Below, in pieces: positions 2,450-6,235 of a DNA stretch of 25,692 nucleotides; position 1 is the first letter of the stretch; every line of letters begins with the position of its first letter. The position numbers were made by a program, and so were the translations under genes. Where the stretch lies: assembly GCA_964425505.1 (NCBI GenBank), contig CAYRME010000001.1, positions 1-25,692 of the forward strand, in the 5' to 3' direction. The notes beneath the pieces are model-generated. The model saw only the letters and a program-made list of their open reading frames with translations, had not been told where the DNA came from and searched no databases. Source of the stretch: an uncultured Candidatus Saccharibacteria bacterium. GTDB lineage: Bacteria; Patescibacteriota; Minisyncoccia; Minisyncoccales; PWPS01.

Positions 2450-2890
2450 ATGAAAAAAATACTCATAGCCATTTTAATGATAGCTGTTTTCGCGGTTCCG
2501 GTAGTAGGGCTTGCGAATGGTTACCTTGAACTTCCGGGTGTTAAAAGAGGTGAGGATGCTCCTGGTGTGATCATAGGAACACCGGGGGAGATTGAGGGTC
2601 TTGCCGGGTGGCTCTTGACCTTTGTATGGGGACTTTTGATCCTGGTAGTGGTAGGGTTCTTCCTGTATGCCGGATTCCTTTTTGTCACCGCTGCGGGAAG
2701 TGATGAAAAGATAACTCAGGCGAAACAGATGGTTACTTACGGAATTGTGGGAGTTATAGTAATGCTCCTTGCCTGGGGTGTAGTGGAACTCATGCAAGCA
2801 TTCTTGGAAGCACCTGACAACGGAGGTGGTAATGTGGTAATGGAGAACACCGAACACGTAAAGAATTATTTAACGGCGCGGTTCTTCTAG
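2450..2890 (+). CDS. TrbC/VirB2-like pilin paralog
   Basis: Signal peptide MKKILIAILMIAVFAVPVVGLA, two TM helices flanking AGFLFVTAAGSDEKITQA. Confidence 0.75.
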   Translation: MKKILIAILMIAVFAVPVVGLANGYLELPGVKRGEDAPGVIIGTPGEIEGLAGWLLTFVWGLLILVVVGFFLYAGFLFVTAAGSDEKITQAKQMVTYGIVGVIVMLLAWGVVELMQAFLEAPDNGGGNVVMENTEHVKNYLTARFF

Positions 2891-2913
2891 TTGAAGAAAA
2901 AAAAGAAAAGCTT

Positions 2914-2944
2914 ACGTCTCGGGGTTTTGCCTCGAGGCGTTTTA
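2914..2944 (+). terminator. Intrinsic terminator after the pilin-like cluster
   Basis: 11-bp stem acgtctcgggg/cctcgaggcgt with two G-U pairs, followed by a short T run. Confidence 0.6.
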
Positions 2945-2962
2945 TTGTAAAATATTGGAAAT

Positions 2963-3048
2963 GCTGCGGTGGCGGAATTGGTAGACGCGCATGGCTTAGG
3001 ACCATGTGGGGCTTTTGCCTCTTGGGAGTTCGAGTCTCCCCCGCAGCA
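2963..3048 (+). tRNA. tRNA-Leu (anticodon TAG), CCA not encoded
   Basis: Acceptor GCTGCGG/CCGCAGC-A, anticodon arm catgg-ctTAGga-ccatg, long variable arm, T-loop TTCGAGT. Confidence 0.96.
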
Positions 3049-3173
3049 CAATTTCTTAAGGGTTTTTACCATGAACCCTACGTGGTTCATGGCGAGTCCC
3101 TCCCCCGCAACAATTCCTTAAGAGTTTTTACCATGAACCCCACGTGGTTCATGGCGAGTCTCCCCCGCAGCAC
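3031..3173 (+). repeat. Two tandem 62-63 bp units, each with a 9-bp hairpin and a copy of the tRNA-Leu 3' end
   Basis: cgagtctcccccgcagca at 3031-3048 and 3156-3173, variant at 3093-3112; hairpins ccatgaacc-N6-ggttcatgg at 3069-3092 and 3132-3155. Confidence 0.93.
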
Positions 3174-3180
3174 CTAAAAT

Positions 3181-3211
3181 AAAAAACCCGCATTTTGCGG
3201 GTTTTTCTTTT
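3181..3211. terminator. Bidirectional intrinsic terminator between tRNA-Leu and hsp20
   Basis: aaaaacccgc-atttt-gcgggttttt, with A and T runs on either side, between convergent genes. Confidence 0.8.
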
Positions 3212-3219
3212 TTGATACT

Positions 3220-3654
3220 TTATACGTCTATCTTTCTTTTCTTTTCTTTTTCTATCTTGGGAGCTTTTACGGTTAGTACACCTTCTTCCATATCGGCCTC
3301 GATTCGAGAGGGGTCTGTTTCCTCCGGCAAGATGACCTCCCTTCGGAATTCTCCGAAATGGCATTCTTGAGTATAGAACTCCTTTATTTCTTGCTTTTCG
3401 GGTCTATTTCTCTTACCTTTGATCGTTACCATATCCTTTTCCGTGGTTATTTCAAGATCATCCTTCCTTACTCCCGCTATGGGAGCTTGGATAACAACAT
3501 GATCCTCCGTTTCGTAAACATCCACGGCAAGCTCTCCTTCTTTTTTCATCCACGATCTTTCCTTCTTCTCTTCCTTGGAAGATTCTTCTTTTTTAGGCTT
3601 CTCATTGTTTAGTTTTTCCGCTTTCCATCTTTTCTCGTTGTCTTTTTTTGTCAT
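3220..3654 (-). CDS. Small heat shock protein, Hsp20/alpha-crystallin family
   Basis: LAVDVYETEDHVVIQAPIAGV, ECHFGEFRREVILP, ADMEEGVLTVKAPK alpha-crystallin motifs. Confidence 0.92.
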   Translation of the reverse strand: MTKKDNEKRWKAEKLNNEKPKKEESSKEEKKERSWMKKEGELAVDVYETEDHVVIQAPIAGVRKDDLEITTEKDMVTIKGKRNRPEKQEIKEFYTQECHFGEFRREVILPEETDPSRIEADMEEGVLTVKAPKIEKEKKRKIDV

Positions 3655-3721
3655 AGAGATTGAATCTAAATGATCATGAGTTCAAAATAGCACTTGCTTT
3701 GAAAAAAGACAAGGCAAATAA

Positions 3722-3990: not shown

Positions 3991-6235
3991 TGGGCCATTT
4001 TTCTATCATTATATACTCTCTTGATTCGGTTGATCTCGGGATAAGAGACCATATCTCTTCTGTTATATAGGGCATGAAAGGATGGAGAAGCTTTAGTTGT
4101 TCCGAGAGTTGCAAGTAAAGATTCTGAAGGGCGGACAATCGCTCTTCATCGTTTCCGTTATAAATACTATCCTTACTCTCTTCTATGATAACGTCCGCAA
4201 AAGTGTGCCAGAAATACTGATACAACTTCTCGGCCGCCAGATAAAATCGAAAGTTTTCCATTTGTTCGGTGACATCTCTTATATGCTCCTCAAGCTTCTC
4301 TTTATCCCTTTTGTCTTTTTCAAGAAGAGTTATTTCGTTATCGGATATTCTTCTCATTTCTTCTTCGTCATCGGGCATCGTAGAAAGAACGAAGCGTGTG
4401 GCGTTCCATATCTTGTTCGCAAAATGTTTTTGCGCTTTTACCTTTTCTTCGGATATCTTGACGTCGTTCCCCGGAGCGGAACCTATGATAAGGGACATTC
4501 TTAGGGCGTCAGTCCCATATTCCTTTGAGACCTCCATGGGATCCAAGATATTGCCCAGAGATTTACTCATTTTTTGCCCCTTCTCATCGCGAACTATTCC
4601 GTGGAGATAAACATAACGAAAAGGAATTTCTCCCATGAGTGAAGTGGTCATGAGGATCATTCTTGCCACCCAAAAGAAGAGTATGTCGTGCCCCGTCTCA
4701 AGGACGGTAGTGGGATGGTAGCTATCAAGATCCTCGGACCCTTGAGGCCATCCCAGGGTGGAAAAGGTCCAAAGCCCGGAAGAGAACCATGTGTCCAGAG
4801 TATCGGTGTCTCTTTCCATTTCACAATCTTCGCAGAAAGGACATTTTTTAGGCTCCTTGGTGCCGACCGTAAAGTTGGCGTCCTTTTTTTCTTTGTCTTC
4901 CTTTTTACAATAATAGGCGGGAATGCGATGGCCGAACCATATCTGTCTGCTTATGCACCAATCGCGAAGGTTCTCTATCCAGTGGAAATAAGTCTTCTCA
5001 AATCTTTCGGGAAGAATGGAGATATGGTCCTCTCTCACGGAAAGGTCCATTAGTTTCTTGAGAGTTGTCTTTTCTCCTTTTTCCACGAAAGAAAGGGAGG
5101 AATGAGGGAATTCGAATTCTTTGTTCACATCAATGAACCACTGCATCTTGGGGAGAGGTTCTATTATTCCGTCCGTTCGTTCCGCTTTGGCGATGTTCTG
5201 CTCCACAAGCTCTTCTTTTACAAGAAGCTCATTCTTTCTCAATTCTTCTACTATTTTTTCTCGAGCTTCTTTTGTTCTCATTCCTTGAAATTGAGAGTTT
5301 TCTATATCGATCCTCCCTTTTTCATTGATGACTTGTTTCATCTCCAGGCCATGCTTTTGCGCTATCTCCCAGTCCGTAAAACTGTGTGCGGGAGTGACCC
5401 CTACCGCCCCCGTTCCGAATTCGGGGTCGATGTTCTCGTCTCCCACCACGCTTATAAAAAGCTCTTCACCGAGGAAATTTACTTGAAAATCCTTTCCTAT
5501 GTATTCTTTGTACCTCTCATCTTCGGGATTTACCGCTACTGCTGTGTCGCCAAGCTTTGTTTCCGGCCTGGTTGTGGCAACGGGTATGGGAAAGTTCTTA
5601 TCGTAATAGAAGGTATAAAGATCTCCTTTGGTCTCTTCGTAATTCACCTCGTCATCGGACACGGTGGTCTGTCCTTCGGGATCGAAGTTCACGATCCTGA
5701 TGCCTCGGTAGATAAGACCGAGCTCATAAAGTTCTTGGAATGCCGTTTCCACCGCCTCATTCCTTTTTTCGTCAAGAGTGTATGCCTCTCTTTTCCAATC
5801 CACGGAAGCCCCCATTTTCTTTACCTGTTCCACGATAGTTTCGTGACTATTTCTTGCGAAGTCGTTGACTCTTTTTAAAAATTCTTCTTTTCCAAGGTCA
5901 TGACGGGTCTTATCCTCCTCTTTTTTAAGAAGAGATTCCACTTTGGATTGGGTGGCAATAGCGGCGTGATCCGTTCCCGGGACCCAAAGAGTTCTCAAGC
6001 CTTTCATTCGATGGAAACGAACCATTATGTCTTCCGTGGTTACTGCCAGGGCGTGTCCCATATGGAGGATTCCCGTGACATTGGGGGGAGGAAGAACAAT
6101 AGAGAAATGGGGAGCATCTTTGGACGTCACTCCTTTTTCTATGCAGGTCTCGGGACTGAAAAGGTCCTCCTTTTTCCATTTCTCATAGATCTTATCTTCG
6201 GTTTCTTTGTGGTCGTAGTTCTTTGGTATCTTCAT
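3965..6235 (-). CDS. valS: Valyl-tRNA synthetase, short form (756 aa) lacking the C-terminal coiled-coil arm
   Basis: PPPNVTGILHMGHA (HIGH), GTDHAAIATQ, editing domain TTRPET, DWCISRQIWFGHRIP, KMSKS motif. Confidence 0.97.
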   Translation of the reverse strand: MKIPKNYDHKETEDKIYEKWKKEDLFSPETCIEKGVTSKDAPHFSIVLPPPNVTGILHMGHALAVTTEDIMVRFHRMKGLRTLWVPGTDHAAIATQSKVESLLKKEEDKTRHDLGKEEFLKRVNDFARNSHETIVEQVKKMGASVDWKREAYTLDEKRNEAVETAFQELYELGLIYRGIRIVNFDPEGQTTVSDDEVNYEETKGDLYTFYYDKNFPIPVATTRPETKLGDTAVAVNPEDERYKEYIGKDFQVNFLGEELFISVVGDENIDPEFGTGAVGVTPAHSFTDWEIAQKHGLEMKQVINEKGRIDIENSQFQGMRTKEAREKIVEELRKNELLVKEELVEQNIAKAERTDGIIEPLPKMQWFIDVNKEFEFPHSSLSFVEKGEKTTLKKLMDLSVREDHISILPERFEKTYFHWIENLRDWCISRQIWFGHRIPAYYCKKEDKEKKDANFTVGTKEPKKCPFCEDCEMERDTDTLDTWFSSGLWTFSTLGWPQGSEDLDSYHPTTVLETGHDILFFWVARMILMTTSLMGEIPFRYVYLHGIVRDEKGQKMSKSLGNILDPMEVSKEYGTDALRMSLIIGSAPGNDVKISEEKVKAQKHFANKIWNATRFVLSTMPDDEEEMRRISDNEITLLEKDKRDKEKLEEHIRDVTEQMENFRFYLAAEKLYQYFWHTFADVIIEESKDSIYNGNDEERLSALQNLYLQLSEQLKLLHPFMPYITEEIWSLIPRSTESREYIMIEKWPKRSKTKIF

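What the first reader, a model, noticed from the sequence alone, without database searches (positions are those of the whole stretch)
3031..3173. tRNA-Leu 3' end repeated twice, each time behind a small hairpin cassette
Seen: the 18 nt from the T-loop (CGAGT) to the discriminator recur twice at 62-63 nt spacing, separated by 44-45 nt cassettes containing ccatgaacc-N6-ggttcatgg. The cassette also echoes the tRNA anticodon arm (cttaagg...accatg versus cttagg-accatg). Established: integrative elements often cross over in the T-loop and regenerate the tRNA 3' end as a direct repeat. Inference: two serial integrations of a minimal element, or scars of larger islands.
Basis: partly seen in the sequence, partly recalled or inferred. 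Interest (0 to 1): 0.62.

Follow-up and report, generated by a model that had tools for sequence, protein, structure and literature searches.

The report
Mobile hairpin splitting spare tRNA-Leu tails
Behind the working tRNA-Leu gene of this ultra-small (CPR) bacterium lie two decayed copies of the tRNA's 3' end, each cut open in its T-loop by a 24-base mobile DNA hairpin; that hairpin occurs at tRNA genes in many bacterial phyla, often beside a tiny GIY-YIG nuclease gene, and I found no paper describing the pairing.

Summary
tRNA-Leu(UAG) at 2963-3048 is followed by two 62-nt units. Its last 19 nt recur perfectly at 3155 and in diverged form at 3093, each directly behind CCATGAACC-N6-GGTTCATGG.

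The hairpin is mobile, but nothing points to an integrase or an island scar.
- The same hairpin sits behind tRNA-Ile on contig C19, again abutting a tail copy that starts at T-loop C56, and next to a frameshifted mini GIY-YIG nuclease gene on C14.
- An intact nuclease gene (C26) most likely follows tRNA-Gln.
- The 18-nt core occurs in more than 117 stretches from many phyla. About 14 copies abut a tRNA or tmRNA 3' end, and 18 loci have a small GIY-YIG ORF within 400 nt.
- The bases left of each hairpin end in a T-stem half plus T54-T55. Each unit is therefore a pseudo tRNA 3' fragment split at T55|C56.
- A Yonathbacteria tRNA-Ile carries the identical 28-nt insert at the same position.
- Same-genus relatives have empty sites at both loci.

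The closest described systems are Ssn/SRM and REP/RAYT, and their defining features tested here are not met. The mechanism (nuclease-made break plus copying repair) is inferred.

The parts
2914..2940 (+). Terminator of the upstream pilin gene. It bounds the tRNA transcription unit on the left. No 5' tRNA fragment lies here.
   Evidence: relatives have a terminator-like hairpin at the same place upstream of their tRNA-Leu
2963..3048 (+). Intact tRNA-Leu(UAG), the only gene with this anticodon found in the genome. CCA is not encoded.
   Evidence: (56.9 bits)
3031..3049 (+). Tail copy 1: C56 to A73 plus one C. This is the functional 3' end of the tRNA. The T55|C56 junction is 3030|3031.
3050..3064 (+). 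Left part of pseudo-unit 1, AATTTCTTAAGGGTT. It ends in a pseudo T-stem 5' half (AAGGG, 3058-3062) plus T54-T55 (3063-3064). G3061 pairs with C3099 of tail 2.
   Evidence: read; RNA fold pairs AGGG with CCCU; same layout with longer homology in L090 and L174
3065..3092 (.). 28-nt insert: filler TTTA (3065-3068) plus palindrome CCATGAACC-CTACGT-GGTTCATGG (3069-3092).
   Evidence: identical 28 nt in the T-loop of tRNA-Ile pseudo-halves in L090 and L174
3093..3111 (+). Tail copy 2 (diverged): CGAGT CCCTC CCCCGCA A C. It starts at C56.
3112..3126 (+). Left part of pseudo-unit 2, AATTCCTTAAGAGTT. Pseudo T-stem half AAGAG (3120-3124) plus TT (3125-3126). A3123 pairs with T3161 of tail 3.
   Evidence: read
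3127..3154 (.). 28-nt insert: TTTA (3127-3130) plus palindrome CCATGAACC-CCACGT-GGTTCATGG (3131-3154).
3155..3173 (+). Tail copy 3, identical to copy 1 (19/19). It is joined to the native downstream flank.
   Evidence: the flank with its terminator is orthologous to that of G005
3182..3206 (.). Bidirectional intrinsic terminator, the first one after the tRNA. The two units are therefore most likely transcribed as the tRNA's 3' trailer.

Best explanation
The stretch 3050-3173 consists of two tandem, non-functional copies of the 3' end of tRNA-Leu(UAG). Each copy holds a T-stem half plus T54-T55, and then C56 to the tRNA end. Each is split exactly between T55 and C56 by the same 28-nt insert: TTTA plus the 24-nt palindrome CCATGAACC-N6-GGTTCATGG.

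The palindrome is a nuclease-less copy of a mobile hairpin family that occurs in many bacterial phyla. There it usually begins at the CCA or discriminator end of a tRNA or tmRNA gene, and it often precedes a gene for an approximately 85-95-residue single-domain GIY-YIG nuclease. This genome holds such nuclease genes. One is intact on contig C26, most likely behind tRNA-Gln. One is frameshifted on C14, next to the same hairpin as a doublet. The units in the window therefore relate to the full element as a MITE does to an IS, or a REP to its RAYT.

Shown here:
- the anatomy of the units;
- the same layout at tRNA-Ile on C19;
- the cross-phylum spread of the hairpin core;
- its anchoring at tRNA ends and its link with the nuclease gene;
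- the recurrent C56 junction;
- empty sites in relatives.

Inferred:
- The nuclease recognises folded (single-stranded or cruciform) DNA of the tRNA gene and of the hairpin.
- It cuts at structural landmarks, namely the T-loop at 55/56 and the 3' end.
- Copying repair then installs the hairpin and leaves a spare tail, so an intact tRNA always survives upstream.
- The second unit arose by unequal recombination or slippage between the tail repeats.
- The units are probably co-transcribed as a 3' trailer and removed during tRNA maturation.
For: (1) Own genome. The hairpin sits at C19:4744-4767, behind tRNA-Ile(UAU). It is directly followed by a 21-nt copy of that tRNA's tail starting at C56, and 'GGTTC' stands left of the hairpin doublet. 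A hairpin doublet at C14:13871-13922 lies beside a frameshifted GIY-YIG gene.

(2) Intact nuclease. An 87-aa GIY-YIG gene lies at C26:36-299 (PF01541, E 2e-17). Contig C38 ends exactly at the 3' end of tRNA-Gln. C26 starts with the sequence that, in relative G005, joins tRNA-Gln-CCA, two hairpins and a 79% identical nuclease gene.

(3) Spread. Of 128 cores, 94 have at least 3 extra flanking pairs against 2 expected, and 50 have a second perfect hairpin within 40 nt against 14 in the control.

(4) tRNA and nuclease link. About 14 cores lie 0-2 nt after a tRNA or tmRNA end, and the tRNA's own CCA often forms the first stem bases. 18 of 117 loci have a small GIY-YIG ORF within 400 nt.

(5) T-loop insertion. 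In L090 (Yonathbacteria) and L174, 21 nt identical to tRNA-Ile (anticodon loop to T55) precede the identical 28-nt insert, followed by the tail from C56. In L097 the piece left of the hairpin keeps that tRNA's rare T-loop variant TCCG, so it derives from the target. In L149, L075, L119 and L105, 'GTTCG' precedes the hairpins and 'CGAAT...' follows them.

(6) Tail copies. 6 of 23 tRNAs with the core downstream have a perfect or near-perfect tail copy; controls have 0.

(7) Covariation in the window. G3061:C3099 in unit 1 corresponds to A3123:T3161 in unit 2.

(8) Empty sites in same-genus relatives at both loci.

(9) No other enzyme candidate. There is no Y1 transposase, and the only tyrosine recombinase lies on contig C2, not at any of these loci.
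Against: - No experiment or read data links the nuclease to the hairpin or to the T-loop cut.
- Co-occurrence is loose in a small sample. Nuclease homologues also occur in relatives that lack this core, and G252 has the hairpin but no homologue.
- In the window the homology left of the hairpin is short (5-7 nt), and the single covariation has a chance probability of roughly 0.05.
- No model explains the 10 nt between tail and pseudo T-stem (AATTYCTTAA).
- The middle tail is more diverged (6/19) than the rest of the unit (3/43). A simple recent tandem duplication does not predict that.
- Several loci (L149, L051, L158, L090, L174) show a different history: a replacement tRNA inserted in the anticodon loop, with 5' fragments left upstream. 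No 5' fragment exists in the window, so one mechanism may not cover all cases.
- The exact hairpin|C56 junction is rare: 0 of 400 other genomes of the phylum.
Confidence: 0.62

Rival explanations
1. Miniature transposon with a long target-site duplication. The 43-nt cassette as a whole is the element. It inserts through staggered cuts at T55|C56 on one strand and just after position 74 on the other. Fill-in then duplicates the 19-21 nt tail, as in casposon or CRISPR-spacer integration.
For: Tail copies are perfect at six loci: window, C19, L064, L075, L090 and L097. One border is always C56 and the other lies at the tRNA end. In L075 the duplication runs 6 nt into the flank. Tandem arrays sharing one repeat are known for casposons (my own knowledge).
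Against: The sequence left of the hairpin derives from the target, not from the element: 21 nt of tRNA-Ile in L090 and L174, and the TCCG variant in L097. Spacers differ completely between loci, and only the hairpin is shared. In L051, L077, L149 and L158 the downstream tail differs from the upstream tRNA's tail and matches a split resident gene. I made no search for a Cas1 or casposase gene.
Confidence: 0.15
2. A tyrosine integrase crossed over in the T-loop, and the repeats are att cores. The cassettes are then two serial integrations of a minimal element, or scars of larger islands that lost their cargo.
For: A direct repeat of the tRNA 3' end starting in the T-loop is the classical footprint of the T-loop sublocation of integrases (my own knowledge, Williams 2002). 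The palindrome is laid out as 9-11 bp arms around a 6-bp centre, like a recombinase core site.
Against: The genome has one tyrosine recombinase, on contig C2 and not near any copy. No copy anywhere holds island cargo or an integrase. The neighbouring gene, where there is one, is a GIY-YIG nuclease. The same hairpin sits at Leu, Ile, Gln, Ser, Gly, Lys and Thr tRNAs and at tmRNA, so it cannot carry a matching att core for each. The hairpin arms covary between copies (CAATGAACC/GGTTCATTG, CAGTGAACT/AGTTCACTG), which indicates a folded structure and not a fixed protein-binding sequence.
Confidence: 0.07
3. Functional RNA. The units are kept because the trailer does something. It could be a processing or stability element for the tRNA precursor. 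In the boldest form, the distal perfect tail (3155-3173) serves as the real 3' end of an interrupted tRNA.
For: No terminator lies between the tRNA and 3182, so the units are co-transcribed. The minimum-energy fold pairs the 5' acceptor strand with the distal tail (z = -5.6). Tail 3 is perfect while tail 2 has decayed. One assembly has C56A and C66A in the first tail only.
Against: Relatives do without the units. The hairpin occurs in both orientations and in non-tRNA contexts. There is no Rfam match. Bacteria have no known way to remove or tolerate a 124-nt insert in a T-loop. Tail 3 with 0/19 changes is not unusual at 7% divergence (P about 0.25). Both variants are C-to-A changes in a single assembly and may be errors.
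Confidence: 0.05
4. Plain slippage or tandem duplication of local sequence, with no mobile element involved.
For: The two units are in tandem and share flank-specific bases and the TTTA filler, so the step from one unit to two probably was a local duplication.
Against: The hairpin occurs elsewhere in the genome, in five other genomes of the order, and in more than 100 stretches from many phyla.
Confidence: 0.03

Closest known systems
Ssn nucleases with their NTS/SRM hairpin repeats (Chenal et al. 2025, Nat Commun, PMC11893778)
   Same: A single-domain GIY-YIG protein of about 90 aa is encoded next to 20-50-nt hairpin-forming repeats that also occur dispersed without the gene. The authors discuss an REP/RAYT-like origin. 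This offers a plausible mechanism: site-specific cutting of folded single-stranded DNA near the hairpin.
   Different: The published SRM search motif does not match these hairpins (1 hit in the genome against 2.7 in shuffles). The paper never mentions tRNA. The nearest solved structures are UPF0213 BH0048 and SLX1, and membership of the Ssn clade cd10448 could not be tested. Here the repeats are anchored at tRNA ends and in T-loops, and they come with duplicated or displaced tRNA parts.
REP / REPIN / BIME elements with RAYT (Y1 HUH) transposases
   Same: Short extragenic palindromes, often as inverted doublets, exist as many nuclease-less copies plus a few copies next to the enzyme gene.
   Different: There is no Y1 transposase in this genome; the partner is a GIY-YIG nuclease. 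The core sequence is shared across phyla, whereas REPs are lineage-specific (my own knowledge). Targeting of tRNA 3' ends and T-loops is not a REP trait.
Free-standing GIY-YIG homing endonucleases, such as phage T4 SegB in the tRNA gene cluster (PMC2330249)
   Same: A GIY-YIG nuclease gene sits among or behind tRNA genes. Spread by a break plus copying repair would explain co-converted or duplicated tRNA parts.
   Different: SegB-type enzymes carry DNA-binding domains and no hairpin repeats. Here the protein is the bare catalytic domain, and the conserved partner is a palindrome.
tRNA-gene integration sites of phages and islands, T-loop sublocation (Williams 2002; my own knowledge)
   Same: A direct repeat of the tRNA 3' end begins in the T-loop, and an intact tRNA is kept at one side.
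   Different: There is no integrase and no cargo. The same element occurs at many different tRNAs, and the remnant of the T-stem 5' half lies left of the insert.
Homing-endonuclease insertions in organelle genes that duplicate the displaced 3' end of the host gene, such as rps3 of Ophiostoma (my own knowledge)
   Same: A selfish insert lands inside an essential gene, and a spare copy of the displaced 3' end keeps the gene working.
   Different: Those cases involve protein-coding genes, LAGLIDADG or GIY-YIG ORFs and eukaryotic organelles. None involves a 24-nt palindrome.

Membership tests
tRNA-anchored palindrome / mini GIY-YIG elements (not found in the literature searched; defined here by the features seen) | Hairpin with core TGAACC-N6(ACGT)-GGTTCA and variable complementary outer stem | tested here: met
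   3069-3092 and 3131-3154 have the exact core plus CCA/TGG outer pairs. 94 of 128 cores elsewhere have at least 3 extra pairs.
tRNA-anchored palindrome / mini GIY-YIG elements (not found in the literature searched; defined here by the features seen) | Sits at or inside the 3' part of a tRNA or tmRNA gene | tested here: met
   In the window it follows tRNA-Leu, inside pseudo T-loops. On C19 it follows tRNA-Ile. About 14 cores elsewhere lie 0-2 nt after a tRNA or tmRNA end.
tRNA-anchored palindrome / mini GIY-YIG elements (not found in the literature searched; defined here by the features seen) | A small single-domain GIY-YIG gene next to some copies, in the same genome | tested here: met
   Frameshifted gene on C14 beside a hairpin doublet. 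Intact 87-aa gene on C26, with G005 synteny placing it behind tRNA-Gln plus hairpins. 18 of 117 loci elsewhere.
tRNA-anchored palindrome / mini GIY-YIG elements (not found in the literature searched; defined here by the features seen) | Patchy, insertion-like distribution with empty sites in close relatives | tested here: met
   6 of 301 genomes of the order have the core. Sites are empty in same-genus genomes at both loci.
Ssn / SRM system (Chenal et al. 2025) | Single-domain GIY-YIG protein of about 90-100 aa | tested here: met
   C26 protein is 87 aa, and PF01541 covers residues 4-73.
Ssn / SRM system (Chenal et al. 2025) | Flanking repeats that fit the SRM motif HGTCWYN(0-2)YYVSBRHN(0-5)WNVSBRGN(0-2)RNCYNB | tested here: not met
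   No match at any hairpin locus. One match in the whole genome against 2.7 in shuffles.
Ssn / SRM system (Chenal et al. 2025) | Protein belongs to clade cd10448 | not testable with these tools
   No CDD library is on hand. The nearest solved chains are UPF0213 BH0048 (E 9e-4) and SLX1.
Ssn / SRM system (Chenal et al. 2025) | Site-specific cleavage of single-stranded DNA near the hairpin | not testable with these tools
   Needs biochemistry.
REP / REPIN with RAYT | Y1 (HUH) transposase gene in the genome | tested here: not met
   PF01797 has no match in the genome; controls respond.
REP / REPIN with RAYT | Dispersed extragenic palindromes, often as inverted doublets | tested here: met
   Doublets with opposite loop orientation on C14, on C19 and in many loci.
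Integrase-borne element in a tRNA gene (att sites) | Tyrosine or serine integrase gene between or next to the repeats | tested here: not met
   The single PF00589 match is on C2. The ORFs around 3031-3173 are a pilin and Hsp20.
Integrase-borne element in a tRNA gene (att sites) | Direct repeat equal to the tRNA 3' end, starting in a loop | tested here: met
   19/19 identity between 3031-3049 and 3155-3173.
Integrase-borne element in a tRNA gene (att sites) | Cargo DNA between the repeats, here or in relatives | tested here: not met
   43 nt lie between the repeats. Relatives have 0 units and no larger insert of this kind.
Known RNA families (Rfam 15) | Covariance-model match to the unit | tested here: not met
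   Only the tRNA scores. The weak leader-type hits all rest on the terminator.

The most novel reading that the evidence does not exclude
tRNA genes across bacterial phyla are parasitised by an integrase-free system: a bare-domain GIY-YIG nuclease plus its cognate palindrome. The system reads the folded shape of tRNA-gene DNA and cuts at two landmarks, the T-loop at T55|C56 and the 3' end. Repair installs the palindrome and, because the tRNA is essential, only outcomes that keep or bring a working copy survive. The arrays of hairpin-split tails seen here, and the nested 'Russian-doll' tRNAs seen in L090 and L174, would then be the fossil record of repeated kill-and-replace cycles. That would amount to a gene-conversion drive acting on tRNA genes.
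Probability: 0.3. Interest if true: 0.8.

Novelty: new variant of a known kind. Interest (0 to 1): 0.6.

Why it matters
Pairs of a hairpin repeat and a small nuclease were described only recently (Ssn/SRM, 2025), and what makes such repeats spread is still open. This locus, with its relatives, shows a second and differently built set of hairpins. They are tied to the most conserved structured genes of the cell. Their insertion point is nucleotide-precise (T55|C56 and the CCA end), and their footprints record what happened to the target.

That makes the question testable. The predicted substrates are 20-80-nt oligonucleotides and an 87-residue protein.

It also matters for annotation of CPR and other metagenome genomes:
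- Orphan tRNA tails and split tRNAs near these hairpins are scars, not att sites of islands.
- Contigs tend to break at these elements, as seen here at tRNA-Gln and on C14.
- A structure-reading single-domain nuclease could become a useful tool for single-stranded DNA.

Tried and rejected
- Rfam at permissive threshold over 2500-3700 found only the tRNA. The weak 'leader' hits all rest on the terminator.
- The published SRM motif does not fit.
- RAYT: no Y1 transposase in the genome.
- Integrase: one tyrosine recombinase, on another contig.
- 5' tRNA-Leu fragment upstream of the intact gene, as in L149, L051, L158 and L090: none found. The 12/13 match between 2921-2933 and the tRNA's variable arm lies in a terminator that relatives also have at that place, so I treat it as chance.
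Half of it is the palindrome itself.
- Strict co-occurrence of hairpin and nuclease in 12 chosen genomes: not discriminating.
- Exact hairpin|C56 junction in 400 genomes of the phylum: only the own genome. In JGI metagenomes: one contig.
I therefore had no read-level test of unit-number polymorphism, of the two C-to-A variants, or of transcription.
- Five literature searches found no description of hairpins anchored at tRNA ends with mini GIY-YIG genes. The library lacks most subscription journals.
Full report
**What is in the window.** ARAGORN and Rfam agree on an intact tRNA-Leu(UAG) at 2963-3048. It is the only gene with this anticodon among the 35 tRNA genes found in the 593-kb, 70-contig genome. 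Earlier notes of this scan describe the organism as an uncultured CPR/Patescibacteria bacterium from soda lakes. In the tRNA, T54-T55 are 3029-3030, C56 is 3031 and the discriminator A73 is 3048. CCA is not encoded.

The 19 nt from C56 to the base after the discriminator (CGAGTCTCCCCCGCAGCAC, 3031-3049) recur perfectly at 3155-3173. They recur in diverged form at 3093-3111. Each repeat lies directly behind the palindrome CCATGAACC-N6-GGTTCATGG (3069-3092 and 3131-3154). The first terminator after the tRNA is at 3182-3206. It is orthologous to the terminator that directly follows tRNA-Leu in relatives. Three other assemblies of the same organism carry the same two units.

**The hairpin is not local.**
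- The same palindrome occurs on contig C19, on the minus strand between tRNA-Ile(UAU) and tRNA-Val(GAC). There it is again directly followed by a copy of the upstream tRNA's tail that starts at C56 (CAAGTCCAGGTGCGCCCACCC).
- It occurs as a doublet of two hairpins with covarying arms at the end of contig C14.
- In 301 genomes of the same order, the core TGAACYNNACGTRGTTCA is present in only six, and the reversed-pattern control gave none.
I expect about 17 by chance, by my own calculation from the collection size. The hits come from Patescibacteria of many classes, Omnitrophota, Planctomycetota, Nitrospirota, Desulfobacterota, Gammaproteobacteria, Caldisericota and others.
- Of 128 cores, 94 have at least three further Watson-Crick pairs on both sides (2 expected). 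50 have a second perfect hairpin within 40 nt, against 14 in a control placed 300 nt away.

Plain slippage cannot be the whole story.

**What the hairpin goes with.**
- tRNA ends. About 14 cores lie 0-2 nt after the 3' end of a tRNA or tmRNA gene. The tRNA's own terminal bases, often the encoded CCA, then form the first pairs of the stem: CCA-TGAACC-ACGTAG-GGTTCA-TGG.
- Nuclease gene. In 18 of 117 loci a small GIY-YIG ORF lies within 400 nt. Typically it stands directly behind the hairpin doublet (L048, L088, L094, L121, L147).
- Own genome, C14. A frameshifted GIY-YIG gene lies right behind the C14 doublet.
- Own genome, C26. An intact 87-residue gene starts at base 36 of contig C26 (PF01541, E 2e-17).
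- Likely position of the C26 gene. Contig C38 ends exactly at the last base of tRNA-Gln(UUG). In the same-genus genome G005, the flanks of C38 and C26 are joined by tRNA-Gln-CCA, a CCA-anchored hairpin, a TGAACC...GGTTCG hairpin and a 79% identical nuclease gene. A full-length element therefore most likely sits behind tRNA-Gln in this genome, and the assembly broke in its hairpins.
- Other enzymes. The genome has no Y1 transposase. Its one tyrosine recombinase lies on contig C2.

**Re-parsing the units.** The bases left of each hairpin are not arbitrary.
- Unit 1 ends AAGGG-TT (3058-3064) and unit 2 ends AAGAG-TT (3120-3126). The real tRNA has GGGAG-TT at 3024-3030. After four filler bases (TTTA) and the palindrome, the sequence resumes with C56.
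- The one difference between the two pseudo T-stem halves (G3061 against A3123) matches the difference in their partner tails (C3099 against T3161). In both units, position 52 can therefore pair with position 62. The RNA fold also draws these stems. Taken alone this is weak: I estimate a chance probability near 0.05.

Other loci make the same layout unambiguous:
- In a Yonathbacteria genome (L090) and a metagenome contig (L174), 21 nt identical to tRNA-Ile(GAU), from the anticodon loop to T55, are followed by the identical 28-nt insert TTTACCATGAACCCTACGTGGTTCATGG. The tail from C56 comes next.
- In L097 the piece left of the hairpins keeps that tRNA's unusual T-loop variant TCCG.
- In L149, L075, L119 and L105, 'GTTCG' stands left of the hairpins and 'CGAAT...' stands right of them.
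- On C19, 'GGTTC' precedes the doublet.

The hairpins therefore sit inside T-loops of partial tRNA copies. The junction lies at positions 55-57, and at exactly T55|C56 in about 12 of the 14 cases I saw. Among 23 tRNAs with the core within 250 nt downstream, six have a perfect or near-perfect tail copy and controls have none.

**Insertion, not ancestry.** Same-genus genomes G002, G005, G010 and G013, and G019 of a sister genus, have tRNA-Leu(UAG), a terminator and the same downstream Hsp20 gene, with no unit. G005, G006 and G012 have tRNA-Ile(UAU) followed after 25-49 nt by tRNA-Val, again with no unit. Both loci in this genome are lineage-specific gains.

**How it most likely works.** The facts above are shown. 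The mechanism that follows is inferred. The closest described system is the Ssn family: single-domain GIY-YIG nucleases that cut folded single-stranded DNA next to their own hairpin repeats (PMC11893778). By analogy I propose the following:
1. The mini nuclease recognises folded DNA of the hairpin and of tRNA genes. The T-arm of a tRNA gene is itself a GGTTCRANYCC hairpin.
2. It cuts at the T-loop and at the 3' end.
3. Repair by copying installs the palindrome.
4. Because tRNA-Leu(UAG) is single-copy and essential, only products that retain an intact gene survive. That would explain why the hairpin is only ever seen in spare or displaced tails.

The two units share their non-element left part and the TTTA filler. 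The step from one unit to two was therefore probably unequal recombination between tail repeats, not a second insertion.

Other loci (L149, L051, L158, L090, L174) show a related but different outcome. There the resident tRNA is split in the anticodon loop by an insert that brings a replacement tRNA. The old 5' fragment is left upstream, and the old tail, which starts at C56 behind hairpins, is left downstream. The window has no 5' fragment, so I cannot say that a single pathway produced all cases.

Three things remain unexplained:
- the 10 nt AATTYCTTAA;
- the stronger divergence of the middle tail (6/19 against 3/43 in the cassette);
- the order of duplication and insertion.

**Rivals.**
- A transposon-type insertion with a 19-21-nt target duplication would give the perfect tails. 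It does not explain the target-derived T-arm remnants or the heterologous tails.
- The integrase reading fails on enzyme, cargo and target range.
- A functional-RNA reading rests on three points: co-transcription, a fold that pairs the 5' acceptor strand with the distal tail, and two C-to-A changes in one assembly (C56 and C66 of the first tail only). Relatives lack the units, however, and the hairpin occurs in both orientations and away from tRNAs.

**Comparison with what is known.** The system works like REP/RAYT or Ssn/SRM, in that there are many enzyme-less hairpins and a few copies with the enzyme gene. Membership fails where I could test it. The SRM motif does not match and there is no RAYT. 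The nearest solved relatives of the nuclease are UPF0213 BH0048 and SLX1. The Ssn paper does not mention tRNA, and five literature searches found nothing on hairpins anchored at tRNA ends.

Earlier notes of this scan describe the same family in many genomes. I reached the tRNA anchoring and the nuclease link from my own searches before reading those notes, and I treat them as agreement, not as evidence. This locus adds three things: the T-loop as a second, nucleotide-precise site; the arrays of hairpin-split tails; and an identical 28-nt insert in two different tRNAs of distant CPR lineages.

**Verdict.** The feature is real. I class it as a new variant of a known kind, a hairpin repeat plus small nuclease partnership, with a mechanism that is still inferred. 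One tool (look-up of sequencing runs) was closed, so no read-level test was possible.

Noticed in passing
window 3031 and 3041 (locus L171, assembly ERZ27266011): Over 2841 aligned bases, this assembly differs from the window only by C3031A (C56, exactly at the T55|C56 junction) and C3041A (C66). Both changes lie in the functional tail of tRNA-Leu. They may be read errors, or a real variant at the proposed cut site.
   Followed up: partly
G000 contig C38 end (5668-5740) and contig C26 start (1-299): C38 stops at the last base of tRNA-Gln(UUG). C26 starts 35 nt before an intact 87-aa GIY-YIG gene. In G005 the two are joined by two hairpins, so the assembly gap most likely hides a full-length element.
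   Followed up: yes
G000 contig C14:13588-13922: A hairpin doublet with opposite loop orientations is followed by a terminator-like hairpin and a GIY-YIG gene. The gene is broken by one frameshift in an A-run. The contig ends 50 nt beyond the doublet.
   Followed up: partly
L179 (G011, same genus), between tRNA-Ile(UAU) and tRNA-Val: The spacer holds a different palindrome, TGTCATTTCCGCC...GGCGGGAATGACA. It resembles the Neisseria NTS/SRM type (GTCATTCC...GGAATGAC) described by Chenal et al.
   Followed up: no
L090 7200-7800 and L174 2250-2800: Nested tRNA-Ile(GAU): a 5' half ending in the anticodon loop, an intact tRNA with inverted-repeat flanks, then one to three 3' halves. In L174 the 5' half also has a palindromic insert in its D-loop. 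In L090, unit 3 has the same hairpin with the loop flipped (ACGTAG instead of CTACGT).
   Followed up: partly
G136 (loci L027, L031, L033, L035, L037, L039-L042): Nine copies of a longer MITE-like element with heptamer-repeat arms contain the hairpin doublet (GCCCTATACC...GGGTATAGGGC plus AACCC-TGAACC-CTACGT-GGTTCA-GGGTT). Most lie at contig ends.
   Followed up: no
L012 (G004, same genus), after tRNA-Leu(UAG): This relative has a different insert at the same place: TAATTATCGGAGG twice, then a long hairpin GGTCCGACCTTCGCAGAATTGCAGAGGTCGGACC. The 3' flank of this tRNA is therefore hit repeatedly by different small elements.
   Followed up: no
window 2921-2933 versus 3009-3021: GGGGTTTTGCCTC in the upstream terminator matches the tRNA's variable arm at 12 of 13 bases. 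Relatives have a terminator at the same place, so I take the match as chance.
   Followed up: partly
window 2450-2890 and 1963-2367: The genes upstream of the tRNA are T4SS_pilin/TrbC-type small pilins (PF18895). The gene downstream on the minus strand (3220-3654) is Hsp20, followed by valS.
   Followed up: no
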